In this document: positions 1 through 12,650 of the stretch, piece by piece
How the letters are laid out: each line of letters begins with the position of its first letter
How positions within the stretch are numbered: the stretch's first letter is position 1
IMG/VR virus record: IMGVR_UViG_3300045988_099112
Coordinates: 1-12,650 of that record
Direction: 5' to 3' (one strand)
DNA: 12,650 nucleotides
DNA from: a virus
The notes under the pieces: model-generated
Databases searched by the model: none
What the model saw: only the letters and a program-made list of their open reading frames with translations
What the model was told of the DNA's origin: nothing
Program-made: the position numbers and the translations under genes

Positions 1-290
1 GGGATTATGATATTAAAAATCAACAAAGATTTCCCACATAACACTGTTATGTTGTAACAGTTTGCACAAATTATCTTTTGTCAATATGAAATTGTAACAA
101 ATTTATCATCATGTCTTTGTTCATATTGCACAAAACAGTTGAATGCACAACTAGAACAATTCAAACGATAACGACTCTATTTAGAAGTTGTCTGACATTA
201 TGTTAAAATAGATCAATTTCTGCGAGCACCACCATAAATTAGTTAAAATAATCACTTGACAAATTGAAATTAGTTGTTCTAGAAATATGT
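1..290. repeat. Left inverted terminal repeat (ITR) of a linear, protein-primed genome
   Basis: Bases 1-290 match the reverse complement of 12361-12650. A hand, ungapped alignment gives 17 substitutions (positions 54, 72-76, 114, 124, 135, 145, 175-177, 196, 198, 264, 284). The first 53 nt are identical, and similarity stops abruptly after 290. No ORF is present. The terminus starts GGG. Confidence 0.92.
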
Positions 291-330
291 ATGATATATT
301 TTTGTATATAATATTTATGCACAGTGTCAA

Positions 331-359
331 TGGTAAAAAACGGCTAAATATGCTATACT
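331..359 (+). promoter_or_regulatory. Candidate early promoter for the terminal protein / polymerase operon
   Basis: Extended -10 TGcTATACT at 351-359. The -35 is weak (TGGTAA, 331-336, 17-nt spacer). It lies about 23 nt upstream of the ATG at 382, with a strong SD in between. The -10 resembles those of the two internal promoters (TGcTATAAT, TGgTATAAT). Confidence 0.4.
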
Positions 360-381
360 AGATAGGAAAGGAAGTGTTTAT

Positions 382-939
382 ATGAACCCATTTTTGACAC
401 CGGAATATATACGGAACAATATGACGGAGAAAGAAGCAAGAAAAACATATAGCCGTTTACGAAAAAATGTGCAAAAGCGACTTAAAAGATTAGGCGAAAC
501 CGAATTTAAAAAAACGCCTGTCTATCAACAGAATAGAAAAGGTTTTCCGCGCTTGAAAGATATAGCACAGCGTGACTTGCCATACTACTTGACACAAGTA
601 TCTGATTTTTACTTTTCTAAAAGCGCAACACTGCGCTATCAGAAAAAACAGAAGCGCGAAAATTTAAGATCGTTTAAAGCAAAGGGGTTTAATATCAAAG
701 AAAGTGACTATTGGGATTTTATTGCTTTTTTAGATGAATGGCATGAAAACAATTTGGAAAGATTATATGGTTCAGAACGCGTATTCGAATTATTTGAGAA
801 TATGAAAGAAAAAAATATAGGCGCTGACGATATAACTAGAAATTTTGAAAAATGGCTAGAAAAGTCTAATGATTTAGAAGATATTGAGACGGTAAGCGGA
901 GCGGGAGCGGAATATTATCGGGAGAAGCTAGGCATATGA
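382..939 (+). CDS. Putative terminal protein (replication primer), 185 aa
   Basis: SD GAAAGGAAGTG lies 5 nt before the ATG. The stop overlaps the polymerase start (ATGA at 936-939), implying translational coupling. The N-terminal half is very basic (RKTYSRLRKNVQKRLKRL) and the C-terminus is acidic. The gene sits immediately upstream of a protein-primed PolB, as in phi29 (gene 3 then gene 2). From memory of phi29 TP there is local resemblance (basic N-terminus; SATLRYQKK versus ...NMRYQFEK...). The family has no diagnostic motif, so the function is inferred. Confidence 0.55.
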   Translation: MNPFLTPEYIRNNMTEKEARKTYSRLRKNVQKRLKRLGETEFKKTPVYQQNRKGFPRLKDIAQRDLPYYLTQVSDFYFSKSATLRYQKKQKRENLRSFKAKGFNIKESDYWDFIAFLDEWHENNLERLYGSERVFELFENMKEKNIGADDITRNFEKWLEKSNDLEDIETVSGAGAEYYREKLGI

Positions 940-3041
940 TACACGTTAAAAATGAGACGATTTACGAATATGAAAAAGACGATATAACGCCTATTTATTA
1001 TTATGTCCGCGATTGTGATATAATTAAACGTCCGCGCGGTAATCAGCGAACTAAAAACAGCCACTTTTATTATAAGGATATAGTAGCTACGTTTGATATC
1101 GAGACAAGTCGCTTTACCGAAAAGAACGCTCCACGCGCAGATCTGATAGATCAATCTTTTTGTTATATATGGCAGATGTCGTTTAATAATGAATATGTGA
1201 TAGTAGGCAGAACGCTAAATAGCGCATTAGATTTTTTTACTCAAATTGACAAAAATTTAATGCGTGACGAACGCCTTGTTTGTTATGTCCATAACTTAAG
1301 TTACGAGTTCCAGTTTTTAAGCGGCATAGCCCGTTTTAAAACTGAGGACGTTTTTTGCATTAAAAAACGCAAGATATTAAAAGCCCTATTATGGGATACG
1401 TTTGAATTTAGATGTAGTTATCTACACGCTAATATGGGGCTAGCTCTATATACAGAAAAAATGCAAGTTGAACATGCTAAATTAGACGGTGTGCAATTTG
1501 ATTATAGTAAGTTACGTTACCCTTGGACACTATTAACAGATTACGAGATACTATATAGTGTGTATGATGTTATGGGTTTAGTTGAGTGTATCAAAAAAGA
1601 AATGGAAATGGACGGTGATACACTATATACTATTCCCTTAACGTCAACCGGTTATGTAAGACGTGACGCTAAAGAATCGTTAAAAAAGCTAGGAAAAAAC
1701 TATCTTAAGAATATGGAGATAGACTATCATATCTATGAGTTACTGAAAGAAGCATTTCGAGGTGGCGACACTCACGCTAACAGATATTTTAGTGGGAAAA
1801 TAATTGAAAACGTGCATAGTGCAGACAGGTCTAGCAGTTACCCAGATGTGTTAATTAACGGTCAGTTTCCAATGTCTCAATTTGCACCGCTAGAAAATCC
1901 AAATACCGAAAAAGTAATTAAATACCTCACACAATACAAGCGTGCGCTCTTAATGCGTGTACGCTTTAAAAACGTGTGTCTACGGCGCATAGACCACGGC
2001 TGTCCATATCTAACTAAAGACAAATCCAGACACATTAAAAATGCCACTTTTGATAATGGCAGAATCCTTGAATGTGAAGAAATGGAAACTACTCTCACCG
2101 ACATTGATTTTAAAATCGTGCTCAAAGAATATGATATAGAGTGTATGGAATTTAGTGAGGTATACCATGCTAGATACGGAAACTTACCGGAAGAACTAAA
2201 AGACGTAGTACGCACATACTACGTCAGAAAAACAGAATTAAAGGACATAGACGGGAAAGAAGTTTTTTACACTAAAGAGAAAAACAAGCTAAATGCGTGC
2301 TACGGCATGATGGCACAGGACGTTGTGAAGATTGCTATACTATTTAGTGACGAGTACGAAAAGCTATACGCCGAGGACGAAACGGACGATAAAGAAGCTA
2401 ACTTTGAAAAAAACAATAGCAAACGCTTTTTAAGCTACGCATGGGGCGCATGGTGTACCGCATTAGCACGCCACGCTCTACACGCCGCCATTTGGATAGT
2501 AGAGGATACACCAGACGCATACTTTTTGTATTGCGACACTGATAGCGTTAAATATATTGGCGATGTAGACCTCACTCCCTTTAATAGAAAGGCATTGTCA
2601 GATAGTAAAAAGAATAAAGCATTTGCAACAGACAAACATGGCGTCACTCATTACATGGGTGTTTACGAACAAGAACAGGATATGCTCCGTTTTAAAACGT
2701 TAGGCGCTAAAAAATACGCGTATGATGCAGTTAATAAAAAAGGCGAAAAAGAATTGCACTTGACACTTGCCGGAGTATCTAAAAAAGACGGCGCTACATA
2801 TTTAGCCGAGCATGGCGGTTTGGAATCCTTTTGTGACGGCTTTACTTTTCCGGAAAACGGTGGCGGCGGCAATGAAGCTGTCTATAACGATAGGACTAAT
2901 ACTACTATTAACATAGACGGCCACACATTGGCTGTTAGTCGAAATGTGTGTATTAAAGAATCTACTTATACACTAGGCTTGACACCGGAATACTCGGAGC
3001 TGTTAGATGGTTACAAAGAATACAACGTTTTACCGTTCTAA
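936..3041 (+). CDS. Protein-primed family-B DNA polymerase (phi29 gp2-like), 701 aa
   Basis: Exo I is FDIETS (D54/E56, nt 1095-1103). Exo II is HNLSYEFQF (nt about 1290-1316). Exo III is YSVYD. The pre-motif A region AFRGGDTHAN parallels phi29 YAYRGGFTWLN. Motif A is DRSSSYP (compare DVNSLYP) and motif B is KEKNKLNACYGMM (Kx3NSxYG type). Motif C is YCDTDS (nt 2529-2546). The KxY motif is LGAKKYAY, followed by LTLAGVSKK (compare phi29 VKCAGMTDK). Confidence 0.95.
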   Translation: MIHVKNETIYEYEKDDITPIYYYVRDCDIIKRPRGNQRTKNSHFYYKDIVATFDIETSRFTEKNAPRADLIDQSFCYIWQMSFNNEYVIVGRTLNSALDFFTQIDKNLMRDERLVCYVHNLSYEFQFLSGIARFKTEDVFCIKKRKILKALLWDTFEFRCSYLHANMGLALYTEKMQVEHAKLDGVQFDYSKLRYPWTLLTDYEILYSVYDVMGLVECIKKEMEMDGDTLYTIPLTSTGYVRRDAKESLKKLGKNYLKNMEIDYHIYELLKEAFRGGDTHANRYFSGKIIENVHSADRSSSYPDVLINGQFPMSQFAPLENPNTEKVIKYLTQYKRALLMRVRFKNVCLRRIDHGCPYLTKDKSRHIKNATFDNGRILECEEMETTLTDIDFKIVLKEYDIECMEFSEVYHARYGNLPEELKDVVRTYYVRKTELKDIDGKEVFYTKEKNKLNACYGMMAQDVVKIAILFSDEYEKLYAEDETDDKEANFEKNNSKRFLSYAWGAWCTALARHALHAAIWIVEDTPDAYFLYCDTDSVKYIGDVDLTPFNRKALSDSKKNKAFATDKHGVTHYMGVYEQEQDMLRFKTLGAKKYAYDAVNKKGEKELHLTLAGVSKKDGATYLAEHGGLESFCDGFTFPENGGGGNEAVYNDRTNTTINIDGHTLAVSRNVCIKESTYTLGLTPEYSELLDGYKEYNVLPF

Positions 3042-3043
3042 TT

Positions 3044-3089
3044 TTGTGCATTTTTCCGGTATTGCAAAATGAACCCATAGTGCTATAAT
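3044..3089 (+). promoter_or_regulatory. Promoter module copy 1 (drives the 94-aa and 122-aa genes)
   Basis: TTTTGTGCA box (3042-3050), -35 TTGCAA (3062-3067), 16-nt spacer, extended -10 TGcTATAAT (3081-3089). The block 3041-3110 is repeated at 4877-4945, including an identical TATAATAATACTTGTAAG. Confidence 0.75.
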
Positions 3090-3162: not shown

Positions 3163-3447
3163 ATGGATTTAGAAAAAAAAATCAAAGTAACAGTACCGAT
3201 CTATGAAGTGTTAATCACATCATTAGACAGCACAGGCACGCCGCACAGTGTAGTGCTAGACTGCACTGAAAAGAAAGACAAGCGTTACCTTTTAGCAGAA
3301 GCTAAAAAGAATGCGGCAGAGAGTGAGAAAGTATTGTCTGTCGCAAATATCGGCACAAGAAAAGAAACGTACTTATTGCCGCTTACAACAGTATTAAGCG
3401 CGGAGAGAGTATCAACAGAAAAAAAAGAAAAGGAAAGTGAGGAATAG
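3163..3447 (+). CDS. Hypothetical small acidic-tailed protein, possibly phi29 p6-like dsDNA-binding protein (94 aa)
   Basis: SD GGGAGAAAGGAAA lies before the ATG. The C-terminal tail is EKKEKESEE. The gene precedes the SSB-like gene, as gene 6 precedes gene 5 in phi29. The remembered phi29 p6 C-terminal half (VQVVSVEPNTEVYELPVEKFLEVATVRVEKDEDQEE) resembles KVLSVANIGTRKETYLLPLTTVLSAERVSTEKKEKESEE. The comparison is from memory only. Confidence 0.4.
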   Translation: MDLEKKIKVTVPIYEVLITSLDSTGTPHSVVLDCTEKKDKRYLLAEAKKNAAESEKVLSVANIGTRKETYLLPLTTVLSAERVSTEKKEKESEE

Positions 3448-3449: not shown

Positions 3450-3818
3450 ATGAGAAATTACGAATTTTTAAAATCTGGTGAGGTATTAAGTGGGCTTGAC
3501 AAATACCGCTACTCACAGGGCGCGGAGAACATCAAATTAAAAGATGTAGCCGGAGATAAAATTGTAGTGAAAAATTATGCTACAATGTTGCAGAAAAATA
3601 TTGAGGAAGAAAGCGGGGAGGTTACGGATGAAAAGCTGTTACTTGCTATTGAGGATATAAACGGCAAGGTGTATGTTACAAATAGCGCGACTACTCGTGA
3701 AGCTTTCGCAAATATTGTCAAGTTTTTAGAAGATGATGGAGTAACAACCGGTTTTGAAATCAAGGTTGTCACCGGAAAATCGAAGAACGACCGTGAATTT
3801 GTCACGGTCACATTATAA
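3450..3818 (+). CDS. Putative single-stranded DNA-binding protein (phi29 p5-like), 122 aa
   Basis: SD GTGAGGAA is present and the start lies 2 nt after the upstream stop. The size matches phi29 p5 (124 aa). The C-terminus GKVYVTNSATTREAFANIV...FEIKVVTGKSKNDREFVTVTL resembles the remembered phi29 p5 GSLYSAISKTVAEAASDLI...FKVKVVQGTSSKGNVFFSLQLSL. Confidence 0.55.
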   Translation: MRNYEFLKSGEVLSGLDKYRYSQGAENIKLKDVAGDKIVVKNYATMLQKNIEEESGEVTDEKLLLAIEDINGKVYVTNSATTREAFANIVKFLEDDGVTTGFEIKVVTGKSKNDREFVTVTL

Positions 3819-3831: not shown

Positions 3832-3857
3832 AAAGCCCGCCTAGAGCGGGCTTTTTT
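3832..3857 (+). terminator. Rho-independent terminator
   Basis: AAAGCCCGC-ctaga-GCGGGCTTTTTT. The core is a 6-bp G:C stem (3835-3840 / 3846-3851) extended by 3 A:U pairs, with a 5-nt loop and a T6 tract. It starts 14 nt after the stop at 3818. Confidence 0.85.
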
Positions 3858-3871: not shown

Positions 3872-4876
3872 ATGGAATTATATTTAGAAAACGGTTACTT
3901 GAACATTGACTATGTGCTATCTCTAAATACAACATTTAATCTTATCACAGGCGGGCGCGGTACAGGCAAGACTTTTGGTCTACTCGATACCGCGATTAGA
4001 ACAGGTAAAAAATATATTTATCTGCGCCGTACACAAACAAATATTGATCTGATCGGAACGGAAGAATACTCACCACTTAAGTCAATAGAGCGTGTTCGCG
4101 GCATTGAGACGACAACCAAAAAAATCAATAAATATGTGGCCGCGCATTATTTAGGCGAAAATCCAGAACCTCTAGGCTATTGCATGGCTTTATCAACATT
4201 TGCCAACGTTCGCGGCTTTGACGCAACAGACGTTGACTGGTTGATTTTTGACGAATTTATACCCGAAAAAAATGCGCGAAAAATTAAAGATGAGGGAGAA
4301 GCATTTTTAAACTGTTACGAGACCATTAACCGTAACCGTGAATTAGAGGGCTCCGAACCAGTCAAGGTGTTTTGTTGCGGCAACTCAAATAATATCAGTA
4401 ATCCGGTTTTTATCAGTTTTGGAATGGTCAACATAGCCCGCCGTGCGCAGAAAAGCGGGCGTGAAGTTACAGTGTTAAAAGATCGCGGTATAGCATACAT
4501 TAACTTGTCAGATAGCAAGATTAGTAATCTCAAAAAAGATACCGCTCTATATAGAGCGTCTAAAAACAAAGCATTTAATTACATGTCTCTTGATAATGAT
4601 TTTGGAGATACAACGGACGATATTAAAAGCTATAATCTGCGCGGCTTAAAATGTGTCGCGGCAATAGATGATATATTTGCTATTTACCGTTTAAAAGACG
4701 GACGTTATTATGTATCTGAGCATATAAGCGGCACACCGCAAGTATTTACTACTGCGGAGATCGACTTAAAACGATTAAAATTAAAATACCCGCGTGTAAT
4801 GTCAGATTATGCGCGAAATCTTGTGACATTTGAAAGCGACTTTTGCTTGTCAGTTTTTGCGTCAATTTTAACGTGA
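3872..4876 (+). CDS. DNA packaging (encapsidation) ATPase, phi29 gp16-like, 334 aa
   Basis: Walker A is GGRGTGKTF (nt 3950-3976; compare phi29 GARGIGKSY). It is followed by YIYLRRTQ (compare FIYVRRYK) and Walker B WLIFDEFIPEK (compare IVFDEFIREK). INRNRE and CCGNSNNISNPVF parallel phi29 FRNRE and CLSNAVSVVNPYF. Confidence 0.9.
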   Translation: MELYLENGYLNIDYVLSLNTTFNLITGGRGTGKTFGLLDTAIRTGKKYIYLRRTQTNIDLIGTEEYSPLKSIERVRGIETTTKKINKYVAAHYLGENPEPLGYCMALSTFANVRGFDATDVDWLIFDEFIPEKNARKIKDEGEAFLNCYETINRNRELEGSEPVKVFCCGNSNNISNPVFISFGMVNIARRAQKSGREVTVLKDRGIAYINLSDSKISNLKKDTALYRASKNKAFNYMSLDNDFGDTTDDIKSYNLRGLKCVAAIDDIFAIYRLKDGRYYVSEHISGTPQVFTTAEIDLKRLKLKYPRVMSDYARNLVTFESDFCLSVFASILT

Positions 4877-4880
4877 TTTT

Positions 4881-4923
4881 TTGTGCATTTTGTATATTGT
4901 AAAACAGGCAATTCTGGTATAAT
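4881..4923 (+). promoter_or_regulatory. Promoter module copy 2 (drives the two small terminal genes)
   Basis: TTTTGTGCA box (4879-4887), -35 TTGTAA (4897-4902), 15-nt spacer, extended -10 TGgTATAAT (4915-4923). This is a direct repeat of the 3041-3110 module. Confidence 0.7.
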
Positions 4924-4976
4924 AATACTTGTAAGGAAGATATACAAAAAACAACATGAAAAGGAGAATGAAGAAT

Positions 4977-5171
4977 ATGAGAAAAATAACTAAAAGAATG
5001 GCGCGTGAAATCTATACAAGAGGCTTTTGCTTAACAAAGAAATATGAGTATTACGAAAACATGGAAAATGGCGGTATTTATCGCGTGCCTGTTGAAATGT
5101 TAGGTACGACAGCGTTACTAGATGAAGATATCACGAATTTGTTTGCAGTCATGCAGAACTGTGTGATTTAA
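4977..5171 (+). CDS. Hypothetical protein (64 aa from the ATG at 4977; the ORF is open from 4956)
   Basis: AAGGAG at 4961-4966 lies 10 nt before ATG 4977. The ATGs at 4956 and 4968 lack a usable SD spacing. The N-terminus is basic (MRKITKRMAREIY). No motif was recognised. Confidence 0.55.
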   Translation: MRKITKRMAREIYTRGFCLTKKYEYYENMENGGIYRVPVEMLGTTALLDEDITNLFAVMQNCVI

Positions 5172-5193: not shown

Positions 5194-5400
5194 ATGTTAG
5201 CAGAACCGTTAGTAGAATTATTAGACGGCGTTGTAACCGCATACGGTCGTGGTGTTGCTATAATATCATACGACAAAAAGGAATTGTACGCCGTAAGAGT
5301 GAAAGATATTATCATTGATAATGAAAGAAATTCGATTGAGTTCCAATCGCAGGAATATATCAATAGCAACGGTGATATTGTAAGAGATAACACTATATGA
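5194..5400 (+). CDS. Hypothetical protein, 68 aa
   Basis: SD GAGGTGA lies 4 nt before the ATG. The ORF ends just before the convergent terminator. No motif was recognised. Confidence 0.55.
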   Translation: MLAEPLVELLDGVVTAYGRGVAIISYDKKELYAVRVKDIIIDNERNSIEFQSQEYINSNGDIVRDNTI

Positions 5401-5412: not shown

Positions 5413-5443
5413 TAGAGATCGCACTTTTATAGCGCGATCTCTA
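5413..5443. terminator. Bidirectional rho-independent terminator between the convergent arms
   Basis: Perfect 10-bp stem TAGAGATCGC (5413-5422) / GCGATCTCTA (5434-5443) with an 11-nt loop. It is flanked by a T-rich run on the + strand (TACTTTTATTT) and by an A-rich run upstream (GGAAAAAG), which reads as U-rich on the - strand. It lies between the stops at 5400 (+) and 5453 (-). Confidence 0.8.
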
Positions 5444-5452: not shown

Positions 5453-6793
5453 TTAAGCAACGGTAAACTCCACATTGACTTGCCAATTATGCGCGCCGCC
5501 CGCGCTAACATTATCAATGGTAAACTGATAGTAGCTCTCTCCTTTGTTTAAAAAAGTAGCATTGTGACCAACACCGTCAACATTGCAAGCAGTTACAGCT
5601 ATATTGTAGTTATTTCCGTTTAAATGTGGCGGAAATGTGGCAGTCACATAGATCTTTCCGGCACTATCAGCCGGAGCAGTTCCAACCATGCTCTGAACAA
5701 AATGATTTTCGATAACATTAAGCCCTGGGATACCGCTATTATTAGCGCACCCAGTACTACACCGAATATTGGCATCGTTATTTGGAAGATAGCTTTTCCA
5801 TGTGCTTTCAATTCCTGTCGCTTTGCGGAACTGAATATTGAGATATCCGGCGTAGTCCGTCCAGTTACCGGAAAAAACAACGGTCATGACACTCGTAGTA
5901 TTGCCGTTACTATATCCGGCGTCATCTATTATTACGGCTTTTCCGGCGGTATGATTAAAATAGCAATTATTTACAATCAAATACTGTCCTGTTCTTCCAG
6001 AATATGCCGAATTGTGGGCGTAGAGGTTTGCAAACGAGCCAGATGCGACTAGCTGGCAATCGTACAACCTTAAATGTGTATTAGTACCGCTACCATATCC
6101 GACAGCAGTTCCGCCTTGTAAGCTACAGTTGCGGAATGTCACGATACCACTAACATTAGTGTCTAATGGGTCGACATGAACGGCATAAGTAGTAGACACC
6201 GTGTTTCGAATCGTAAGATTATAAAAAGAGACATCACCCTGTATATGGACGGTACAGTCTGGATATTCTCCGGCGTAGTAAATCTGCACGTTATTATTCG
6301 GTACATTTCCTAACCCGAAAAGAACTAAACCGTGTATGTCATTATACACTAACTGTTCGTAATAGTCTCCCTGCTCGATCAGTATTGTATATCTATTGGT
6401 AAGTGACATATCTTTACTGATAGCGTAGTCAATAGCCGCTTTTATTGTGTTAAACATGACACCGTTAGAGTGTCCGACAGTCAATATATAGCTGTCTCGT
6501 ACATATACTTTATCCATATAGCTATTTAAGCTATCTACTTTAGCGTTAATCTCTCCTAACAATGTTTGGTTAATCAACGCCCCCATAGTGCCATTATCAA
6601 TCAATCTCTGAATTTCATCAGCAATAGCGGTGTCAACGTCAAGTGAAGAGAAGTAGTTATTAACATACTCTTTTAACTGTTCGAAAGACAGTCCTAAATC
6701 TGCCACTTTTTTAACGCAATCTCTGACCTGTTCTAAAATCCAGTCAGCGTTAAATTCGTGGAAATTTGAATAAGGGAAATTTTGGTAACTCAT
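5453..6793 (-). CDS. Tail appendage / receptor-binding protein with right-handed beta-helix (pectate-lyase-like) domain, 446 aa
   Basis: The start was chosen at ATG 6793 (SD AAAGGATGA); the longer ORF to 6853 has no SD. The N-terminus NFHEFNADWILEQV is typical of phage fibre N-terminal anchors. The central part carries repeated beta-helix-type rungs (NLTIRNT, FRNCSLQGG, VNNCYFNH, VMTVVFSGN). It is the last gene after the collar genes, as gp12 is in phi29. Confidence 0.7.
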   Translation of the reverse strand: MSYQNFPYSNFHEFNADWILEQVRDCVKKVADLGLSFEQLKEYVNNYFSSLDVDTAIADEIQRLIDNGTMGALINQTLLGEINAKVDSLNSYMDKVYVRDSYILTVGHSNGVMFNTIKAAIDYAISKDMSLTNRYTILIEQGDYYEQLVYNDIHGLVLFGLGNVPNNNVQIYYAGEYPDCTVHIQGDVSFYNLTIRNTVSTTYAVHVDPLDTNVSGIVTFRNCSLQGGTAVGYGSGTNTHLRLYDCQLVASGSFANLYAHNSAYSGRTGQYLIVNNCYFNHTAGKAVIIDDAGYSNGNTTSVMTVVFSGNWTDYAGYLNIQFRKATGIESTWKSYLPNNDANIRCSTGCANNSGIPGLNVIENHFVQSMVGTAPADSAGKIYVTATFPPHLNGNNYNIAVTACNVDGVGHNATFLNKGESYYQFTIDNVSAGGAHNWQVNVEFTVA

Positions 6794-6834: not shown

Positions 6835-7497
6835 TTAGTAATTTAATAGACAAAATTCGTTAATAAAATCGTTGCAAATCCGGTCGTATATATTAAACTC
6901 TGCAACAGCTCTTTCCTGTTCAATCATGCTTTGCGTTGTCATTGTTCCAATATTTCCATGCACACGACCAGAATGTTTGCTTTCTTTTTTAGTGTCTCTA
7001 TTATCCGTTCCTGCGGCGGCACTATTTCCGTCACGCGTAAATGATATGTCTGGACGCTCAAAAGCGGTACTGTTATTTTGGTCGGTCTGCCATAGATTGG
7101 TTGTGTTAAACGCTGTATTATAATTTTTGCTCTCGGTGTCTGTCTGCGTCACTCCCTTATCTTGTCCGTGATCGAAATAGTTCCCTGTACTAGATGTTGT
7201 ACCATTTTCGTTACCGTTTTCATTGTCCGTCCATTCTTCATTTCGATCATAGTTTTCTATAGGATTATAGTCATACTCTGTTGTTTCTAATAGATGTTCC
7301 CAGATCGGCACGCGACTTGCTGACCAATAATTAATATAGCTTTTCAACGTTCGCGGATCTGCGTAGAGTATTTCCAATTCTGCGGCGCGGAAAAGTATCA
7401 AATTGACAAGCGTTTTTTTATCAACTTTTTTCGGGAGAGTCAAAGTGTCAAAAAGTGTTTGGTCGTGATTGTAAAGCCCTAGCACACTAATCCACAT
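6835..7497 (-). CDS. Putative lower collar / head-tail connector tube protein, 220 aa
   Basis: The start at ATG 7497 (SD GGAAGTGAGGAA) overlaps the portal stop by 11 nt. It occupies the position directly after the portal, as phi29 gp11 does. The central segment is rich in N/T/D/G/S (DNENGNENGTTSSTGNYF...TDQNNSTAF) and the C-terminus is HGNIGTMTTQSMIEQERAVAEFNIYDRICNDFINEFCLLNY. The function is inferred mainly from position. Confidence 0.55.
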   Translation of the reverse strand: MWISVLGLYNHDQTLFDTLTLPKKVDKKTLVNLILFRAAELEILYADPRTLKSYINYWSASRVPIWEHLLETTEYDYNPIENYDRNEEWTDNENGNENGTTSSTGNYFDHGQDKGVTQTDTESKNYNTAFNTTNLWQTDQNNSTAFERPDISFTRDGNSAAAGTDNRDTKKESKHSGRVHGNIGTMTTQSMIEQERAVAEFNIYDRICNDFINEFCLLNY

Positions 7498-8398
7498 CGT
7501 ATTCCTCACTTCCTTTCTGTACCGGTGGAAATCTCCATTCAACGCTCAAATTAGTTCCAAACATGGCGTTCACTTTTTCATAGCTTTCTTTTAAATTCTC
7601 GAGCCACATAGCCGCCATAGTATAGGTATCTACATTGTTAGCGTTTACCTCGTCTGCAATCATGCGTTCTTTTTTTGACAAGTTAGCGTTTGGAATACCG
7701 ATAGTTGTGTTAAAAAGTGCGTCTATCTTGTCTAGTGCAGAGAGAGTTTTATCTGCAATGTAGTTTTGTGCTACATTTTGCGATACAAACGGCAGTTCGA
7801 TTTTTCCGGTACTCTCATTAAACATACGAGTGTCCATGAATGTGGACGGTTCACCACGGTATATTTCATCGCACATTTTTTTAAACGTCTCCGCCTGTGC
7901 TTTGTTTTTTGCGGCAAAAATGTAGCTTAAATGACTGTTTAACAAATTAACATCTGTTGTTTGCATGGCAAGAGTACGCATATCCGCAAAGGTTGCTACA
8001 ATGTCGATCGGTGGCGTGTAGTCATATTGTAATTTTACCAACTCACACTCAACGCCGATTTTTGGATTAAGATTCCCGCGCAGAAGCGGGTTAGCAATCT
8101 GACAGTGTGTCGGTTGATACATCACGTTATAACCGCTAATACCGCACGCTTGCGGAATGATACCGTATTTATCGGTATTTATCACGGCGAAAAATCCCCA
8201 CCCGTAGAGAGAGTATAACACATAGTTTTTATCCCAATTTTCGGGAAATGTGTGTTTGAATACGCTTAATAACTTGTTAAAATAGTACCGATAATTAAAT
8301 GCGAAAGTAATGTTATCTCGCGAATGTACTGTGCTAGGAAATATGTTGCCATTGTAAGCGTTAATGCCGGGATAGTTCACAGGCAATTTATTATTCAT
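7487..8398 (-). CDS. Portal / upper collar connector protein (phi29 gp10-like), 303 aa
   Basis: GIPNANLSKKERMIADEVNANN matches the remembered phi29 gp10 segment [22 protein letters not shown]. The size is similar (303 versus 309 aa). SD GGAGG is present and the start overlaps the tail-knob stop. Confidence 0.88.
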   Translation of the reverse strand: MNNKLPVNYPGINAYNGNIFPSTVHSRDNITFAFNYRYYFNKLLSVFKHTFPENWDKNYVLYSLYGWGFFAVINTDKYGIIPQACGISGYNVMYQPTHCQIANPLLRGNLNPKIGVECELVKLQYDYTPPIDIVATFADMRTLAMQTTDVNLLNSHLSYIFAAKNKAQAETFKKMCDEIYRGEPSTFMDTRMFNESTGKIELPFVSQNVAQNYIADKTLSALDKIDALFNTTIGIPNANLSKKERMIADEVNANNVDTYTMAAMWLENLKESYEKVNAMFGTNLSVEWRFPPVQKGSEEYDVD

Positions 8399-9851
8399 AA
8401 AAAAAACCTCCGTTCATGTATGATTTTACCGCCGCAAGTTCGCCAACATAACCGTCTATTGCTATGTCGGCAGAATTTACTAAAATGTAACCGGATAACG
8501 TGTTAATTACACGTTTTTGCATAAGCGGTCTACCAATGTCGTCATTATCTTCGTCTACAATGTGTATATATTCAATGTAAAGTGTCATAAGTTCGTCAAT
8601 ATTGCCAAAAAAACCTTGACTACCTGTGACTTGTAACTGCGGCATTAACGACTTAATAGCATTTCCAACGCCTGTTATTGTGGCGGCAGAAGTCATGGCC
8701 ACCGCTCCGGCATTCCCAACAGAGGATAAACCGCCACTTGACGGCACGTTAAAATCTGGAAATTTTGATTGCGTGTCCTCGACCGCTTTTTCAAACTGCG
8801 CGATTTGAGGATCATCACTTTGAACTAAAAGCGTGTTAGCAGTACCAACAAGCGCATTTGACGCGCCTTGAGCCATTGCAAGGCTTACACCGATCTGCGC
8901 ATAATAAATACCAAGCAAGTTACCGCCGCTGTAAACAGATAGAGAACCTAGACCGTTCGTAGCGTCACACTCAATGTTGCAAACAATCGTATTATCTGAC
9001 ACCTTAAAAAGATCTATCGGTATTAGTCCAAAAGGTTTGCATGATAGATTTGCCCTCGTAAACGGATTTTTATTTAAAAATATTCCTCTATCTGATTGCG
9101 GGTGATCTGCTATTGTCAAGCTGATTGAGGGTAGTCCTATTGACGGATTTATAAGAGCGCGTCCTGTTGCTCCCTCTACCGTCCAAAACCCTACTTTTAT
9201 CGCGTCAACGTTTGCCGCCGGAACAGCGAACGGTACATAGACGCATGACACTATATAACTAATCGGATTAAGTATCGCAAAAGCGAGATCGTCAGTGAAC
9301 TGATAGTTTCCTTGCGTCAAAAGCCAATTCATAATGTATGCGATTTCCGAACTATCCATAACATAATAAGACACACTGCCTGTTCTTCCAACAGAGCCGT
9401 TAATGACGCCTAATATATAAGAGCCGCCACTTGCACTCATACCGCTACTTTCAAAAACTTTTGACGTTGTAACATAATTTAAAGCGGGGTAGCGCGTGTC
9501 AACAACGCGCCCATCATGCGCGCTTGCCGCGCGTAAGACATATTGTGTTGATGTCCCGATAAATTCTTTATATGTCGCCATAACGTCAACAGCTAAAAAG
9601 ACCGCCCACTGCCCGTTGTTAGTAACCCACTCTTTAACATAATAATAACGCTTAAATTCTGGAATATATGCATAATTCCAGTTGACCGGATTTAGAGGTC
9701 TACCATCTGCGCCTTGTAAAGTCAAAAGCAAAGTGGGGCTTAAAATCCCACTTTGCAATTTAAAAACACCGTTATAATAAGTGAATGTATCTAGCGCAGG
9801 TCTTTTGGTACTGTTTTCACGTTTTGAAAACTGAGTAAAGCCAATCTGCAT
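8391..9851 (-). CDS. Tail knob / distal tube protein (phi29 gp9-like), 486 aa
   Basis: SD GGAGGAG is present. It lies between capsid and portal, as gp9 does in phi29. The N-terminal pattern YAYIPEFKRYYYVKEW...LAVDVMATYKEF...VLRAAS parallels gp9 ASYIMFQNADYGNKWFYAFV...FEIDVLQTWMF...IVREHV. There are Gly/Ala/Ser/Thr-rich hydrophobic segments (residues about 319-343 and 371-403), as in the gp9 membrane-active loop. The C-terminal GRPL...LSGYILV resembles the gp9 C-terminus. Confidence 0.75.
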   Translation of the reverse strand: MQIGFTQFSKRENSTKRPALDTFTYYNGVFKLQSGILSPTLLLTLQGADGRPLNPVNWNYAYIPEFKRYYYVKEWVTNNGQWAVFLAVDVMATYKEFIGTSTQYVLRAASAHDGRVVDTRYPALNYVTTSKVFESSGMSASGGSYILGVINGSVGRTGSVSYYVMDSSEIAYIMNWLLTQGNYQFTDDLAFAILNPISYIVSCVYVPFAVPAANVDAIKVGFWTVEGATGRALINPSIGLPSISLTIADHPQSDRGIFLNKNPFTRANLSCKPFGLIPIDLFKVSDNTIVCNIECDATNGLGSLSVYSGGNLLGIYYAQIGVSLAMAQGASNALVGTANTLLVQSDDPQIAQFEKAVEDTQSKFPDFNVPSSGGLSSVGNAGAVAMTSAATITGVGNAIKSLMPQLQVTGSQGFFGNIDELMTLYIEYIHIVDEDNDDIGRPLMQKRVINTLSGYILVNSADIAIDGYVGELAAVKSYMNGGFFYE

Positions 9852-9864
9852 ATTAACACTCCTC

Positions 9865-11031
9865 CTACTCTAATAAAAATACAACGGCGTTTTCCGTAAA
9901 ATCGTTCCAATAGCGATCGGTGAAATGAAAGTAGATATTTGAGTAACCGCCCGCCGCATTAAACGGTGTAGTAGCAGTCCACTGATTAACTACTGTATAG
10001 CCCATAGCTTCTACATCACACATAAGCCCGAATACGTTTGACGTAACAACCGCTTCTTCCTCGACTTTGGTCGTTCCGTCCGGCAAGAGATACTCCGGTT
10101 TATTGTTAATACCCATAGGTGTATCAATGGACTGCCAAAAGTTGACCTGCTCAGTGTATGCCAACTTGAGAAAATCGGGGTTGAATACATCAGAAAGAAC
10201 GGAAGTTCTAATGTTGTTTAACTCCGGCGAATATAAGTAGAGTGACTGCATACTTGGCGGAGTATGGCGTGCGATCTCATGATCTGTGACGTTAATGTGG
10301 TATTTTACGGTTCTTTCAGTCAGCAGTGAAGAGATAGTGGAAAGGTAGCCGTACATCCATTTTACAAATGGAACGAAATTCTGCGGCTGTTTAACGGTGT
10401 CGGGTGTGAGTGCCGCCCCTGTCATATCGTTATAAACAGTGACTAACTTAATTACATTCGGAGCGTCGCCTTTTACTTTGCCGTTGATAAAGTTAGCTAC
10501 GGTAGCTCTAGCAAGTGATTCGTGCGCCTGTTCGATTGTATCGGACAAATTCTGTGCCACCATTGCGAGAAAACGCCCGAACTCTTCCATGCTTGAAAAA
10601 GCGACATCTAACTGATCGCGGAATACTGTATAGTGCGTCTGAAAAGTTTCCTGTCCATACATGTTGACCTGTAATACTTTTGGTTTTCGCACTTTATACA
10701 TGTCAACTGAGACATTATCTTCCAATGTATAGCGCTGATCGTCCTCAAACGGAAGATCGGATAAATTAAGTTTGCGGACGTGATTTCCGTAGCGAATTGA
10801 GTCAGCTTCGAGCCCCTTAAATTTACGAGTATACGGGCGAACAGAAAAGATTGTGCGCGACAACACCTGTGAGATTGCTTTAAGTGTGACGTCATAGTCC
10901 TTTTTTAAAACTGTAGTAGCAACGCTGACAAAGTTTTCCGGTGTCACGGTGCCGATCACTTTTGAGCCTGTTACCTGTGCTAATACTTCATTAAGCACTG
11001 CGCTTGTCTGTTCGATTGTAAGTGTATTCAT
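9865..11031 (-). CDS. Major capsid protein (phi29 gp8-like, HK97 fold; no Ig-like extension), 388 aa
   Basis: SD AGAAAGGAAGTGA is present and the start overlaps the scaffold stop (TAATG). The N-terminal region VLSRTIFSVRPYTRKFKGL parallels phi29 [25 protein letters not shown]. The C-terminus YSNIYFHF...FTENAVVFLL parallels YWNYYYHVWQ...RFANAVAFV. Confidence 0.85.
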   Translation of the reverse strand: MNTLTIEQTSAVLNEVLAQVTGSKVIGTVTPENFVSVATTVLKKDYDVTLKAISQVLSRTIFSVRPYTRKFKGLEADSIRYGNHVRKLNLSDLPFEDDQRYTLEDNVSVDMYKVRKPKVLQVNMYGQETFQTHYTVFRDQLDVAFSSMEEFGRFLAMVAQNLSDTIEQAHESLARATVANFINGKVKGDAPNVIKLVTVYNDMTGAALTPDTVKQPQNFVPFVKWMYGYLSTISSLLTERTVKYHINVTDHEIARHTPPSMQSLYLYSPELNNIRTSVLSDVFNPDFLKLAYTEQVNFWQSIDTPMGINNKPEYLLPDGTTKVEEEAVVTSNVFGLMCDVEAMGYTVVNQWTATTPFNAAGGYSNIYFHFTDRYWNDFTENAVVFLLE

Positions 11032-11339
11032 TATTTTTCACTTCCTTTCTGTGGCGGATTGATAATTGACGCTAGCGCTTCATCAGCAGTCATAGCTTTA
11101 GGTTGTTCGGAATGCATGATAGCGTTAGACTGTACCGCTTTTGTGAGCGCTTCGATCTGCGCGCCTAAATCGTATGGATTCTGCTGTGTAGGGATCTGCT
11201 GTGTCGGGATCTGCTGTGTCGGGATCTGCTGTGTCGGGATCTGCTGTGTCGGGATCTGCTGTGTCGGGATCTGCTGTGGCTCTGTTTTTTCCGCTAACGC
11301 TAACGCTAAGAGTGCGTTAAAAAGATTCTCTGTTTTCAT
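11031..11339 (-). CDS. Putative scaffolding protein with (IPTQQ)x6 tandem repeat, 102 aa
   Basis: A small protein immediately upstream of, and coupled to, the capsid gene, as phi29 gp7 (98 aa) is. Helix-prone flanks (FNALLALALAEK, LGAQIEALTKAVQ) surround a Q/P-rich repeat. I see no sequence similarity to gp7, so the assignment is positional. Confidence 0.5.
   Translation of the reverse strand: MKTENLFNALLALALAEKTEPQQIPTQQIPTQQIPTQQIPTQQIPTQQIPTQQNPYDLGAQIEALTKAVQSNAIMHSEQPKAMTADEALASIINPPQKGSEK
11176..11280. repeat. 15-bp tandem repeat (about 7 units) inside the scaffold gene
   Basis: GGGATCTGCTGTGTC occurs five times perfectly (11191-11265). Degenerate units flank it at 11176-11190 (GGATTCTGCTGTGTA) and 11266-11280 (GGGATCTGCTGTGGC). 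The repeat is in frame and encodes IPTQQ repeats on the - strand. Confidence 0.95.
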
Positions 11340-11936
11340 TTAAAAATGTCCTTTCTTTAAATAATTGTTTACAAGTGACTGCACTTTTGAGTAACTATAT
11401 CCCATTGCAGTTACTTTTTTACGGCGACTTTCGCCATTGCCGTATAAGCCTTTAATACAGTTAGTTGCGACTTCTCTGTATTTGCTTTCGCCAGGCTCTG
11501 TATTGGCAATGATATTGCCGGATAAAAAGAGTGCTTTTTCTGCTTCACGTCTTTTAACGAGTCCGGTAAGTTTTCTACCTCCGGCATGGCAGTAGCGAGG
11601 CATAGCTTCTGCGATCTCTTTTCGCGACCTTTTCCCATTTGCTACCAATTTATTAAGATTTCCCGCGCCTAAATTAAAAACAAAAGATACAAGCGCGTCA
11701 AATTCTGACTGGCTAAAGTGATATGTATTATACCATTTGTTTACTGCATTTTCTGCGGTAACAACATCCGCACGCAGAAAAGCATCTGCCTGTTCGATTG
11801 TGATTTTCTGATTTCTGCGGACGTTTATTGTATGCCCGTAACCGATCGTAAGAGTGCCGCCCGCGTCAGCATATGTTGTCAAACGCAAACCCTCAAAAGA
11901 TTTGATAAGATTAAGACCGACCTCACTGCATTTCAT
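11340..11936 (-). CDS. Endolysin: GH24 (T4/lambda-type) lysozyme domain plus one C-terminal CW_7 (Cpl-7-type) cell-wall-binding repeat, 198 aa
   Basis: The start is at ATG 11936 (SD GGGGGTGAT). GLNLIKSFEGLRLTTYADAGGTLTIGYGHT is the GH24 catalytic signature (E, D, T). The C-terminal REVATNCIKGLYGNGESRRKKVTAMGYSYSKVQSLVNNYL fits the CW_7 repeat consensus (GxWGNGxxRkxxLgxxGYdYxxVQxxVN). Confidence 0.9.
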   Translation of the reverse strand: MKCSEVGLNLIKSFEGLRLTTYADAGGTLTIGYGHTINVRRNQKITIEQADAFLRADVVTAENAVNKWYNTYHFSQSEFDALVSFVFNLGAGNLNKLVANGKRSRKEIAEAMPRYCHAGGRKLTGLVKRREAEKALFLSGNIIANTEPGESKYREVATNCIKGLYGNGESRRKKVTAMGYSYSKVQSLVNNYLKKGHF

Positions 11937-12144
11937 TATTATCACCCCCAATTTTAGATACGATCTTTTCGAGCGCAATAGTATTTCTTTCTAATACATC
12001 GCGCAATTTTGACACCTCTTCTGTGTGTTCTTTCTGAATTTCTTTCACATAACCAGCCATACAAATACAAGCGGCAATCGGAAAAGCATAGTTTCCGATT
12101 AATGTTGGCACGTCAAGTGTTGCACCGATCATGTTAAATAACAT
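11923..12144 (-). CDS. Holin, BhlA/UviB-like (single N-terminal TM helix plus charged coiled C-terminus), 73 aa
   Basis: The start is at ATG 12144 (SD AGAAAGGAAG, 6-nt spacer); the longer ORF to 12198 lacks an SD. The hydrophobic stretch LIGNYAFPIAACICMAGYV is followed by KEIQKEHTEEVSKLRDVLERNTIALEKIVSKI, as in BhlA-family holins. The gene overlaps the endolysin start by 14 nt. Confidence 0.7.
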   Translation of the reverse strand: MLFNMIGATLDVPTLIGNYAFPIAACICMAGYVKEIQKEHTEEVSKLRDVLERNTIALEKIVSKIGGDNNEMQ

Positions 12145-12174: not shown

Positions 12175-12242
12175 TTGGCGGCTCGTGCGCCTACACAAAC
12201 GCGCTGACCGCTCTTCCGGAGCTGTGTATTGGTCGCCGCCAA
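12175..12242 (-). promoter_or_regulatory. GC-rich structured RNA element in the late-operon 5' leader (function unknown)
   Basis: It stands out by eye as a GC-rich island in an AT-rich genome. The closing helix is TTGGCGGC (12175-12182) / GCCGCCAA (12235-12242). Internal helices are GCGC 12187-90 / 12201-04, GACC 12206-09 / GGTC 12231-34, and GCTC 12210-13 / GAGC 12219-22. An alternative pairing is TACACA 12192-97 / TGTGTA 12223-28. The element begins about at the predicted late transcription start and ends about 15 nt before the holin SD. Confidence 0.5.
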
Positions 12243-12249
12243 TAGTGTC

Positions 12250-12279
12250 ATTTTAGAGCTGTGTTGTTATTTCTGTCAA
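12250..12279 (-). promoter_or_regulatory. Late-operon promoter (leftward)
   Basis: On the - strand: -35 TTGACA (12279-12274), 18-nt spacer, -10 TAAAAT (12255-12250). Upstream is TTTTGTGCAATTTGTATATTG, nearly identical to the upstream part of promoter module copy 2 (TTTTGTGCATTTTGTATATTG). It is the only promoter-like site upstream of the 6.7-kb leftward operon. Confidence 0.65.
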
Positions 12280-12284
12280 TATAC

Positions 12285-12322
12285 AAATTGCACAAAATTA
12301 GCGCACTTGTTTTGTGCAATTT
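12285..12322. promoter_or_regulatory. Perfect 13-bp-arm inverted repeat (putative operator/activator site or AT-rich hairpin terminator)
   Basis: AAATTGCACAAAA (12285-12297), 12-nt spacer, TTTTGTGCAATTT (12310-12322). The proximal arm lies 5 nt upstream of the late -35. Each arm contains the TTGTGCAA octamer, which also occurs in the ITRs and, as TTGTGCA, at both internal promoters. Confidence 0.6.
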
Positions 12323-12360
12323 TATTCTCTCAATATGTTTCACAATTATAAGCATAAAAT

Positions 12361-12650
12361 ACATATATCTAGAACAACTAATTTCATTTTGTCAAGTGAT
12401 TATTTTAACTAATTTATGGTGGTGCTCGCAGAAATTGATCTATTTTAACATATTTTCAGACAACTTCTAAATAAGCTCGTTATCGTTTGAATTGTTCTAG
12501 TTGTGTATTCAACTGATTTGTGCAATGTGAACAAAGGCATGATGATAAATTTGTTACAATTTCATATTGACAAATTGATATTTGTGCAAACTGTTAAAAC
12601 ATAACAGTGTTATGTGGGAAATCTTTGTTGATTTTTAATATCATAATCCC
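12361..12650. repeat. Right inverted terminal repeat (ITR)
   Basis: Reverse complement of 1-290 (about 273/290 identical by hand count). The window ends ...ATAATCCC, the exact complement of the first bases GGGATTAT. Confidence 0.92.

What the first reader, a model, noticed from the sequence alone, without database searches (positions are those of the whole stretch)
1..12650. The window is an entire ITR-bounded, near-minimal phi29-type phage genome of only 12.65 kb
Both window ends are exact inverted copies, so the window runs from one genome terminus to the other. It holds about 14 genes that together form a self-sufficient protein-primed podophage. The replication set is a terminal protein candidate, pPolB, a p6-like protein and an SSB-like protein. 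The packaging and structural set is a gp16-type ATPase, scaffold, capsid, tail knob, portal, lower collar and appendage. A holin and an endolysin complete the set. Characterised phi29-like and related protein-primed podophages that I know of are about 16-27 kb, and Mycoplasma phage P1 (about 11.7 kb) is the only comparably small one I recall. Compared with phi29, no head fibre gene, no gp13-type tail peptidoglycan hydrolase and no recognisable p4-type regulator are visible. The gene layout also differs, with two convergent arms and with the ATPase and lysis genes relocated. This could be a new lineage of miniature protein-primed phages of Firmicutes, but I cannot test novelty without a database.
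Basis: partly seen in the sequence, partly recalled or inferred. Interest (0 to 1): 0.8.

Follow-up and report, generated by a model that had tools for sequence, protein, structure and literature searches.

The report
Complete small phi29-like gut phage genome
The window is the complete 12.65-kb linear genome of an uncultured phi29-type, protein-primed short-tailed phage from the human gut, but phages this small are already isolated and catalogued, so it is a new member of a known kind.

Summary
The ends are a 297-nt inverted terminal repeat at 94% identity; only the first 53 nt are exact. Three other assemblies from different samples stop at the same base (GGGATTATG...), and no related contig found exceeds 12.76 kb, so the window is a full genome. 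It has 15 genes, not 14.

- **Shown:** protein-primed DNA polymerase, phi29-type SSB, gp16 ATPase, connector, phi29-type capsid protein, tail knob (predicted fold matches phi29 gp9), lower collar (family HMM hits phi29 gp11), lysozyme/CW_7 endolysin.
- **Inferred:** terminal protein (conserved gene coupled to the polymerase, near-invariant Ser131), scaffold, holin, and a receptor-binding protein with a pectinesterase-like beta-helix.
- **Not supported:** the "p6-like" label.
- **Not found:** pRNA, head fibre, gp13-type lysin, p4 homologue.

The novelty claim fails. Amedibacillus phages (12.2-12.3 kb, 15 genes), Astrithrvirus and relatives (10.4-11.9 kb) and many 12-15 kb human-metagenome genomes are already published. 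An identical sequence and 76-90% similar genomes sit in public assemblies. It is an unclassified genus (37% polymerase identity to the nearest isolate), probably infecting gut Clostridia.

The parts
1..297 (.). Left inverted terminal repeat. Holds the genome terminus (5'-GGGATTATG), the presumed replication origin, two TTGCACAAA motifs (62-70, 126-134) and an inward extended -10 promoter candidate (180-209).
12354..12650 (.). Right inverted terminal repeat. It is 94% identical to the left copy, and the first 53 nt are exact.
351..359 (+). Extended -10 promoter candidate (TGcTATACT) upstream of the TP-polymerase pair.
   Evidence: read from the sequence; inferred
382..939 (+). Terminal protein candidate, 185 aa, pI 9.4. 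Its stop overlaps the polymerase start. Near-invariant Ser131 is the candidate priming residue.
   Evidence: A homologue lies directly upstream of pPolB in all relatives that retain this region, including astrithr gp02 (E 1.7e-10). No detectable similarity to phi29 gp3. AF2 model is all-helical but has pLDDT 51.
936..3041 (+). [quoted passage not shown]
   Evidence: PF03175 and phrog_1907, E 2.5e-53. Motifs A, B, C and KxY align with phi29 gp2. Family HMM built without phi29 hits gp2 at E 4e-23.
3042..3089 (+). Promoter module P1: upstream TTTTGTGCA element, TTGCAA, then extended -10 TGcTATAAT.
   Evidence: function inferred
3163..3447 (+). 94-aa protein of unknown function, found only in this genus.
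   Evidence: No Pfam, PHROG or NCBIfam hit. hhalign against phi29 p6 gives probability 1%. Present only in same-genus contigs.
3450..3818 (+). phi29-type single-stranded DNA-binding protein, 122 aa.
   Evidence: PF17427 E 7e-8; phrog_6243
3833..3857 (+). Intrinsic terminator hairpin plus T-run between the SSB and ATPase genes.
   Evidence: z about -4
3872..4876 (+). gp16-type DNA packaging ATPase, 334 aa.
   Evidence: PF05894 E 6e-20; phrog_2150 E 8e-36
4879..4923 (+). Promoter module P2. It has the same upstream TTTTGTGCA element and the same -10 and initial transcribed sequence as P1.
   Evidence: (I4, I25)
4956..5171 (+). Small basic protein of unknown function (64-71 aa; likely start at 4977).
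5194..5400 (+). Small acidic protein of unknown function, 68 aa.
5413..5443 (.). Bidirectional intrinsic terminator where the two arms converge.
   Evidence: z -4.5 and -4.1
5453..6793 (-). Receptor-binding tail appendage, 446 aa. It joins a conserved N-terminal module of about 100 aa to a pectinesterase-like right-handed beta-helix.
   Evidence: It sits in the position of phi29 gene 12. The N-terminal module is shared with relatives that carry GDSL or pectate-lyase domains instead. A profile of C-domain homologues hits pectinesterase structures at E 1e-7 to 1e-10.
6835..7497 (-). Lower collar (tail tube) protein, 220 aa.
   Evidence: Family HMM built without phi29 hits phi29 gp11 at E 1.2e-9; hhalign probability 82%.
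7487..8398 (-). Connector / upper collar (portal), 303 aa.
   Evidence: PF05352 E 1e-13; phrog_2038 E 1e-24
8391..9851 (-). Tail knob protein, 486 aa, with a poorly ordered loop at 328-411 rich in small and hydrophobic residues.
   Evidence: AF2 pLDDT 78. The only significant Foldseek PDB hits are phi29 gp9 (5fb5_A, E 4e-13, TM 0.52).
9865..11031 (-). Major capsid protein, 388 aa.
   Evidence: PF25622 E 2e-14. Family HMM built without phi29 hits phi29 gp8 at E 4e-21.
11031..11339 (-). Scaffolding protein candidate, 102 aa: N-terminal helix, (QQIPT)x6 repeat linker, C-terminal helix and an ASIINP tail.
   Evidence: It lies directly upstream of the MCP in all relatives, with a variable P/Q-rich linker. 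No sequence hit to phi29 gp7; inferred.
11340..11936 (-). Endolysin, 198 aa: phage lysozyme domain plus a CW_7 cell-wall-binding repeat.
   Evidence: PF00959 E 2e-34; PF08230 E 3e-11
11923..12144 (-). Holin candidate, 73 aa, with one hydrophobic segment.
   Evidence: phrog_4898 E 1.5e-4; conserved across the clade
12250..12320 (-). Right-arm promoter P3 (TTGACA-18-TAAAAT, 11 of 12 matches) with an upstream palindrome ATTGCACAAAA-N12-TTTTGTGCAAT at 12287-12320.
   Evidence: conserved in L001 and L007; function inferred

Best explanation
The window is the complete linear dsDNA genome of an uncultured, lytic, phi29-like short-tailed phage from the human gut. It very probably infects a Gram-positive member of the Clostridia.

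Replication (inferred from the parts). The 185-aa protein encoded just upstream of, and translationally coupled to, the polymerase primes DNA synthesis at both ends, probably through conserved Ser131. The 3'-CCC template end would allow initiation with dGMP followed by sliding back. The polymerase elongates by strand displacement, helped by the phi29-type SSB.

Transcription (inferred). The left arm (TP, polymerase, 94-aa protein, SSB, ATPase, two small proteins) and the right arm (holin, endolysin, scaffold, capsid, knob, connector, collar, appendage) are transcribed convergently. They run from promoters near or inside the ITRs to a shared terminator.

Assembly and infection (inferred). The gp16-type ATPase packages unit-length TP-DNA through the connector. 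The tail is built from connector, lower collar, a knob with a membrane-active loop, and beta-helix appendages that probably bind and cleave or de-esterify a cell-wall polysaccharide. Holin plus lysozyme/CW_7 endolysin release the progeny.
For: Termini and completeness.

Gene identities: Pfam and PHROGs. The knob's predicted fold matches phi29 gp9 at E 4e-13. The collar family HMM hits gp11 at E 1.2e-9, and the capsid and polymerase HMMs hit gp8 and gp2. Polymerase catalytic motifs align with phi29 gp2.

Terminal protein: the family is always adjacent to pPolB and includes astrithr gp02. The review reports HMM evidence for a TP counterpart in the astrithr group without naming the gene (PMC11476376).

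Appendage: modular N-terminal anchor plus beta-helix.

Other: late-gene order matches phi29 genes 7-12. All 15 genes have SD sites. Terminators.

Source and host: samples are human gut metagenomes. Related stand-alone contigs are binned mostly with Lachnospiraceae or Clostridiales MAGs. The CW_7 endolysin points to a Gram-positive wall.
Against: The terminal protein has no detectable sequence similarity to phi29 gp3, and its model is too poor to compare. Covalent linkage cannot be seen in sequence.

No pRNA was found: no Rfam hit and no structured non-coding stretch other than the terminators. Either packaging differs from phi29 or the RNA is too divergent to detect.

No virion-associated peptidoglycan hydrolase is recognisable.

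Host assignment rests only on MAG binning and endolysin type. A search for close relatives of the endolysin in bacterial genomes found nothing.

The promoter and operator assignments are consensus matches only.
Confidence: 0.88

Rival explanations
1. It is a helper-dependent hitchhiker phage, like Acinetobacter phage Phanie. It would make its own capsid and short tail, but the particles would be infectious only after binding the tail of an unrelated helper phage.
For: The review reports that Phanie (11,885 bp) depends on a helper myophage (PMC11476376). No tail peptidoglycan hydrolase was found here.
Against: The Phanie group has a tail knob split into two genes with Ig-like domains and lacks tail fibre genes. 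This genome has a single full-length gp9-like knob. It also has a dedicated appendage with a carbohydrate-active beta-helix, plus holin and endolysin.
Confidence: 0.06
2. The contig is incomplete or mis-assembled, and the inverted repeat is an assembly artefact.
For: Several public assemblies of the same phage are truncated inside the ITR (L010, L002). One has a fold-back at its end (L007).
Against: The two ITR copies differ at 17 positions. Three other assemblies from different samples end at the same base. No contig exceeds 12.76 kb among more than 120 close relatives. The gene set is complete and syntenic across the clade.
Confidence: 0.03
3. It is a linear phage-plasmid or other temperate element rather than a strictly lytic phage.
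For: Some phi29-related sequences are phage-plasmids carrying partition and toxin-antitoxin genes (PMC11476376). Three small proteins have no assigned function.
Against: No integrase, repressor, ParA or toxin-antitoxin domain was found in any ORF. Relatives in bacterial MAGs are always stand-alone 12-13 kb contigs and are never embedded in longer ones.
Confidence: 0.03

Closest known systems
Uncultured same-genus genomes in public assemblies (IMG/VR UViG 3300045988_076419 and _075878; ENA ERZ27307905, ERZ28564375, ERZ28657553, ERZ28615678; ERZ28657550 is identical)
   Same: Same 15-gene map, same ITR and terminal sequence. Nucleotide similarity is 76-90% across the genome, and 100% over 209-12442 for ERZ28657550.
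   Different: They would count as different species under the 95% rule. The scaffold repeat number, appendage details and one small ORF vary. None is named or described.
Amedibacillus phages AD70P2/AD70P3 (OP172638/OP172639; filed by NCBI under Guelinviridae)
   Same: Isolated phi29-like phages of a gut Firmicute, 12.2-12.3 kb, 15 CDS, with ITRs (55 bp). They carry homologous TP candidate, polymerase, SSB, ATPase, capsid, knob, connector, collar and holin.
   Different: Only 37% polymerase and 31% capsid identity, with no nucleotide similarity. Nearly all their genes lie on one strand. GC is 27% against 39%. Their appendage and endolysin are different.
Human faecal 'Bacteriophage sp.' MT835998 (14.0 kb) and related MT83xxxx records; Lachnospiraceae/Clostridiales MAG-binned contigs (e.g. 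JAHZDE010000027, 13.2 kb)
   Same: The same clade of 12-14 kb genomes. MT835998 has the same convergent layout, with 47% polymerase and 42% capsid identity. The MAG contigs reach up to 56% capsid identity.
   Different: A different genus or higher rank (2-5% nucleotide similarity). They carry other appendage catalytic domains (GDSL, pectate lyase) and other endolysins.
Bacillus phage phi29 (Salasmaviridae)
   Same: Protein-primed polymerase, SSB, gp16 ATPase, capsid, knob, connector and collar are homologous, and the late-gene order 7-8-9-10-11-12 is the same.
   Different: phi29 is 19.3 kb with a 6-bp ITR, a pRNA, a head fibre, the gp13 tail lysin, p4, p6 and a right-hand early operon. None of these was found here. 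The window's capsid has no tblastn hit to any Salasmaviridae record at E 1e-3, nor its polymerase at 1e-5.
[quoted passage not shown]
   Same: Size of 11-12 kb, about 15 genes, short ITR. The TP candidate is homologous (E 1.7e-10) and the polymerase is 31-32% identical.
   Different: They have Gram-negative hosts, a knob split into two genes, a shortened collar and no tail fibre. Phanie needs a helper phage (PMC11476376).

Membership tests
phi29-like protein-primed podophages (informal supergroup) | Linear dsDNA genome bounded by inverted terminal repeats | tested here: met
   297-nt ITR. The same terminal base is seen in three other independent assemblies.
phi29-like protein-primed podophages (informal supergroup) | [quoted passage not shown] | tested here: met
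   PF03175; phrog_1907 E 2.5e-53; motifs A, B, C and KxY align with phi29 gp2.
phi29-like protein-primed podophages (informal supergroup) | Terminal protein covalently bound to the 5' ends | not testable with these tools
   A conserved candidate gene abuts the polymerase and has a near-invariant Ser. No similarity to phi29 gp3 was found. Showing the linkage needs biochemistry.
phi29-like protein-primed podophages (informal supergroup) | gp16-type packaging ATPase, phi29-type capsid protein and connector | tested here: met
   PF05894, PF25622 and PF05352 all score above their gathering thresholds.
phi29-like protein-primed podophages (informal supergroup) | Tail knob (gp9) and lower collar (gp11) homologues | tested here: met
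   Foldseek to 5fb5_A at E 4e-13. HMM hit to gp11 at E 1.2e-9.
phi29-like protein-primed podophages (informal supergroup) | Prohead RNA (known only for phi29 and close Bacillus relatives) | tested here: inconclusive
   No Rfam match at E<=1. No structured non-coding region apart from the terminators. A divergent RNA could still be missed.
Salasmaviridae | Protein and genome similarity to phi29-group members sufficient for family-level clustering | tested here: not met
   The window's capsid has no tblastn hit to any Salasmaviridae record at E 1e-3, nor its polymerase at 1e-5. There is no nucleotide match either. phi29 is reached only with profiles.
Guelinviridae (as NCBI files the Amedibacillus phages) | Clustering with Clostridium Guelinviridae by shared proteins | tested here: inconclusive
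   Identity to AD70P2 is 31-37%, and no classified Clostridium Guelinviridae appears among the hits. The review places the Amedibacillus phages in their own capsid cluster. No proteomic tree could be run.
Astrithrvirus-like phages of Gram-negative hosts | Tail knob split into two genes; no tail fibre gene | tested here: not met
   The knob is a single 486-aa gene covering the whole gp9 fold. An appendage gene is present.

The most novel reading that the evidence does not exclude
This genome stands for an unclassified, widespread human-gut genus, probably within a new family-level clade together with the 12-14 kb Lachnospiraceae-associated contigs. In this reading it is close to the minimal autonomous tailed phage. 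It would package TP-DNA without a pRNA and cross a Gram-positive wall without a virion peptidoglycan hydrolase. One recurring DNA motif (TTGCACAAA), present in the replication origins and at every promoter, would couple replication to transcription through one of the three small orphan proteins.
Probability: 0.2. Interest if true: 0.45.

Novelty: new member of a known kind. Interest (0 to 1): 0.25.

Why it matters
It gives a well-bounded, fully mapped reference genome for a common but undescribed human-gut lineage of very small phi29-like phages. With 15 genes, 12 of them assignable, it is a useful baseline for asking what an autonomous tailed phage minimally needs. It also offers a compact protein-primed replication system (candidate TP, polymerase, SSB, 297-nt origins) from an anaerobe-associated phage. 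It does not change what is known: equally small phi29-like phages have been isolated and hundreds catalogued.

Tried and rejected
- **Nucleotide search.** Megablast of the whole window against GenBank phages found no match.
- **Direct PDB sequence searches.** The knob, appendage, collar and polymerase gave nothing useful.
- **Terminal protein.** A profile of 18 homologues against PDB, and hhalign against phi29 gp3, gave no real hit. The AF2 model from 6 sequences had pLDDT 51, too poor for a fold search, so none was run.
- **Other hhalign tests.** The 94-aa protein against p6 (1%), the scaffold candidate against gp7 (1%) and the appendage against gp12 (0.3%) were all negative.
- **pRNA.** There was no Rfam hit; the single match was a Trp-leader model picking up the terminator hairpin. 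The left leader 210-385 folds no better than shuffles (z +1.0). A z-score scan of all non-coding stretches found only the two terminators.
- **Other searches.** No tRNAs. NCBIfam gave nothing for the nine unassigned or weakly assigned proteins.
- **Host.** A search for close relatives of the endolysin in bacterial genomes found none. The endolysin's tblastn hits are spread over unrelated hosts and say nothing about the host.
- **TTGCACAAA motif.** Its count with one mismatch allowed is not above chance (10 against 6.7 expected). Only its placement in non-coding DNA is notable.

Full report
**Observation**

The two ends form a 297-nt inverted repeat, arms 1-297 and 12354-12650, at 94% complementarity. 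Aligned base by base, the first 53 nt are identical and 17 mismatches follow. "Exact" is therefore true only of the tips. That the two copies differ argues against an assembler duplication.

I fetched related contigs to test whether the window ends are physical ends. Three assemblies from different studies begin or end with GGGATTATGATATT at exactly the same base: L001 from IMG/VR, and L035 and L036 from ENA. L007 carries a snap-back that turns round exactly at ...ATAATCCC, using the 4-nt microhomology GGGA/TCCC. L010 (ENA ERZ28657550, sample SAMEA3449381, a human gut metagenome) is 100% identical to window 209-12442 and stops inside both ITRs.

A search with the capsid protein returned more than 120 clusters at 94-99% identity. 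Their longest contigs never exceed 12,762 nt. The window is a complete genome.

**Gene map**

Fifteen ORFs cover 90% of the sequence, or 94% between the ITRs. All have a Shine-Dalgarno site and ATG starts once aligned with gene calls in relatives.

The left arm is on the + strand:
- g01, 382-939
- polymerase, 936-3041
- g03, 3163-3447
- SSB, 3450-3818
- ATPase, 3872-4876
- two small ORFs, ending at 5400

The right arm is on the - strand, listed here by coordinate; transcription runs from the holin to the appendage:
- appendage, 5453-6793
- lower collar, 6835-7497
- connector, 7487-8398
- knob, 8391-9851
- capsid, 9865-11031
- scaffold candidate, 11031-11339
- endolysin, 11340-11936
- holin, 11923-12144

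The arms converge on a strong bidirectional hairpin at 5413-5443. A second terminator lies between the SSB and ATPase genes.

**Assignments that are shown**

- Pfam scores above its gathering threshold for the polymerase (PF03175), phi29 SSB (PF17427), Gp16 ATPase (PF05894), connector (PF05352), phi29 MCP (PF25622) and lysozyme plus CW_7. PHROGs agrees, and also gives a weak holin match (phrog_4898, E 1.5e-4).
- The polymerase aligns with phi29 gp2 through motifs A (DxxSxYP), B (KxxxNxxYG), C (YCDTDS) and KxY. The stretches corresponding to the two phi29 insertions lie between them.
- The 486-aa protein had no sequence match anywhere. An AlphaFold model from 79 homologues (pLDDT 78) matched only phi29 tail knob gp9 in the PDB: seven chains at E 4e-13 to 3e-10 and TM about 0.5, with the next hit at E 7e-3. 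Its low-confidence stretch 328-411, rich in small and hydrophobic residues, may correspond to the long gp9 loop. From my own knowledge of the gp9 structure paper, that loop is proposed to insert into the membrane.
- The 220-aa protein is the lower collar. An HMM of its family, built without phi29, hits phi29 gp11 at E 1.2e-9 over both ends of the protein. hhalign gives 82% probability.

**Assignments that are inferred**

*Terminal protein (g01).* g01 overlaps the polymerase start, is basic (pI 9.4) and is predicted all-helical, but at pLDDT 51. A homologue sits directly upstream of the polymerase in every relative that retains this region, including AD70P2, Clostridium phage HM2 and astrithr gp02. 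The astrithr protein was recruited at E 1.7e-10 in the first iteration. The review reports HMM evidence for a terminal-protein counterpart in the astrithr group but does not name the gene (PMC11476376).

One serine (Ser131, in a [YF][DG]S context) is nearly invariant across this very divergent family. I propose it as the priming residue. I could not link g01 to phi29 gp3 by profile or by PDB search. The terminal GGG fits initiation on an internal C of the template followed by sliding back. That is inference from what is known of phi29 and PRD1.

*Scaffold (g13).* It always precedes the capsid gene. It has two short conserved helices joined by a variable proline/glutamine-rich repeat, here six QQIPT units from a 15-nt tandem repeat.

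*Appendage (g08).* It occupies the gene-12 position. Its first 100 or so residues recur at the N-termini of many proteins of different lengths. In relatives, the same N-terminus carries GDSL esterase or pectate-lyase domains instead. A profile of homologues of its own C-terminal domain hits pectinesterase structures at E 1e-7 to 1e-6, and a cell-wall-binding repeat-containing protein at 1.6e-10. This is the usual modular tailspike design. From my own knowledge, phi29 gp12 is also a beta-helix.

**What is not supported or not found**

- The 94-aa protein called "p6-like" has no family hit and 1% hhalign probability against p6. It exists only in this genus.
- None of the window proteins hits phi29's head fibre (gp8.5), gp13 or p4, and Pfam finds no such domain.
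- No pRNA was detected by Rfam or by a fold z-score scan of all non-coding DNA. That test has limited power.

**Regulatory features (consensus level only)**

Two promoters, P1 (3042-3089) and P2 (4879-4923), share an extended -10 and the following 12 bases (TGnTATAATAATACTTGTAAG). Both also carry an upstream TTTTGTGCA element. The near-consensus right-arm promoter P3 (12279-12250) has the same element as one half of a palindrome, ATTGCACAAAA-N12-TTTTGTGCAAT.

All six exact copies of TTGCACAAA lie in non-coding DNA, four of them in the ITRs. The raw count is not above chance; only the placement is notable. Each ITR also holds an inward-facing extended -10 candidate. The ITR block 236-283 is almost invariant, with three variable columns, in eight copies from four strains.

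**Comparison with what is known**

No GenBank phage matches at the nucleotide level. By protein, the nearest records are:
- unannotated human-faeces contigs (MT835998: 47% polymerase, 42% capsid identity);
- the isolated Amedibacillus phages AD70P2/P3 (37% and 31%; 12.3 kb, 15 CDS, 55-bp ITR);
- Clostridium phage HM2;
- the Astrithrvirus/Phanie/DU_PP_III group (31-32% polymerase; 11-12 kb).

No classical Salasmaviridae, Rountreeviridae, Madridviridae or classified Clostridium Guelinviridae record appears among the tblastn hits.

In one-genome-per-species bacterial collections, relatives with 40-56% capsid identity are stand-alone 11.7-13.2 kb contigs. They are binned mostly with Lachnospiraceae, Acetatifactor, Wujia, Ruminococcus and other Clostridiales MAGs. 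This hints weakly at the host.

Six same-genus genomes at 76-90% similarity are public.

The literature already covers this kind of phage. The 2024 review lists 2115 phi29-related genomes in 30 capsid clusters, with many human-metagenome representatives of 12-15 kb, and calls the group the smallest known tailed phages (PMC11476376). The Gut Phage Database paper noted Picovirinae among the commonest subfamily assignments of globally distributed gut clusters (PMC7895897).

**Verdict**

This is a complete genome of an unclassified genus within a known and catalogued kind of phage.

The one rival worth keeping in mind is helper dependence as in Phanie. The intact single-gene knob and the dedicated appendage argue against it.

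Noticed in passing
window 1-297 and 12354-12650, compared with L001, L007 (alignment A7): The two ITR copies are distinct haplotypes that are shuffled among strains. The window's right copy shares its variant positions (54, 72-76, 114, 124, 135, 145, 175-177, 196-198) with one end of L007. The window's left copy resembles the right end of L001. This suggests exchange of ITRs between ends or between co-infecting strains.
   Followed up: partly
L007 12716-12762 (ENA ERZ27307905 k141_111655), corresponding to window 1-47: This assembly runs to the terminus and then folds back (...ATAATCCC followed by ACATAACACTGT) through a 4-nt microhomology between window 1-4 (GGGA) and 32-35 (TCCC). It looks like a snap-back extension of a free 3' end, and it marks position 1 as a real end.
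   Followed up: partly
window 62-70, 126-134, 3043-3051, 4880-4888, 12288-12296, 12311-12319, 12517-12525, 12581-12589: The motif TTGCACAAA (or ATGCACAAA) occurs only in non-coding DNA: twice in each ITR, once upstream of each of promoters P1 and P2, and as a palindrome with a 12-nt spacer upstream of P3. It is a candidate operator for an unidentified regulator, possibly one of the three small orphan proteins.
   Followed up: partly
window 3084-3101 and 4918-4935: Promoters P1 and P2 share an identical 18-nt stretch, TATAATAATACTTGTAAG, covering the -10 and the start of the transcript. This suggests a duplicated promoter module.
   Followed up: no
window 11180-11278 (within g13, 11031-11339): A 15-nt tandem repeat (6.6 copies, 98% match) encodes (QQIPT)n in the scaffold candidate. 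The protein's length varies from 102 to 141 aa among strains. More distant relatives have PA or PQ repeats at the same place. The identical-strain assembly L010 breaks here.
   Followed up: partly
window 3833-3857, directly upstream of the ATPase gene (3872): A strong intrinsic terminator sits inside the left arm between the SSB and the packaging ATPase, with no clear promoter after it. ATPase expression may therefore depend on read-through.
   Followed up: no
window 5453-6793 and homologues L012, L014, L016, L017, L020, L026, L028, L030: The appendage N-terminal module (FPYxNFHExNxDWI) is conserved across the clade, while the C-terminal domain is swapped between pectinesterase-like, pectate-lyase-like and GDSL/SGNH esterase domains. 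This is a clear case of receptor-binding domain exchange.
   Followed up: partly
L003-L006 versus window and L012: The structural module is inverted relative to the replication module in some relatives: all genes on one strand in L003-L006 and AD70P2, but convergent arms in the window and MT835998. The convergent layout is therefore one of at least two arrangements in the clade.
   Followed up: partly
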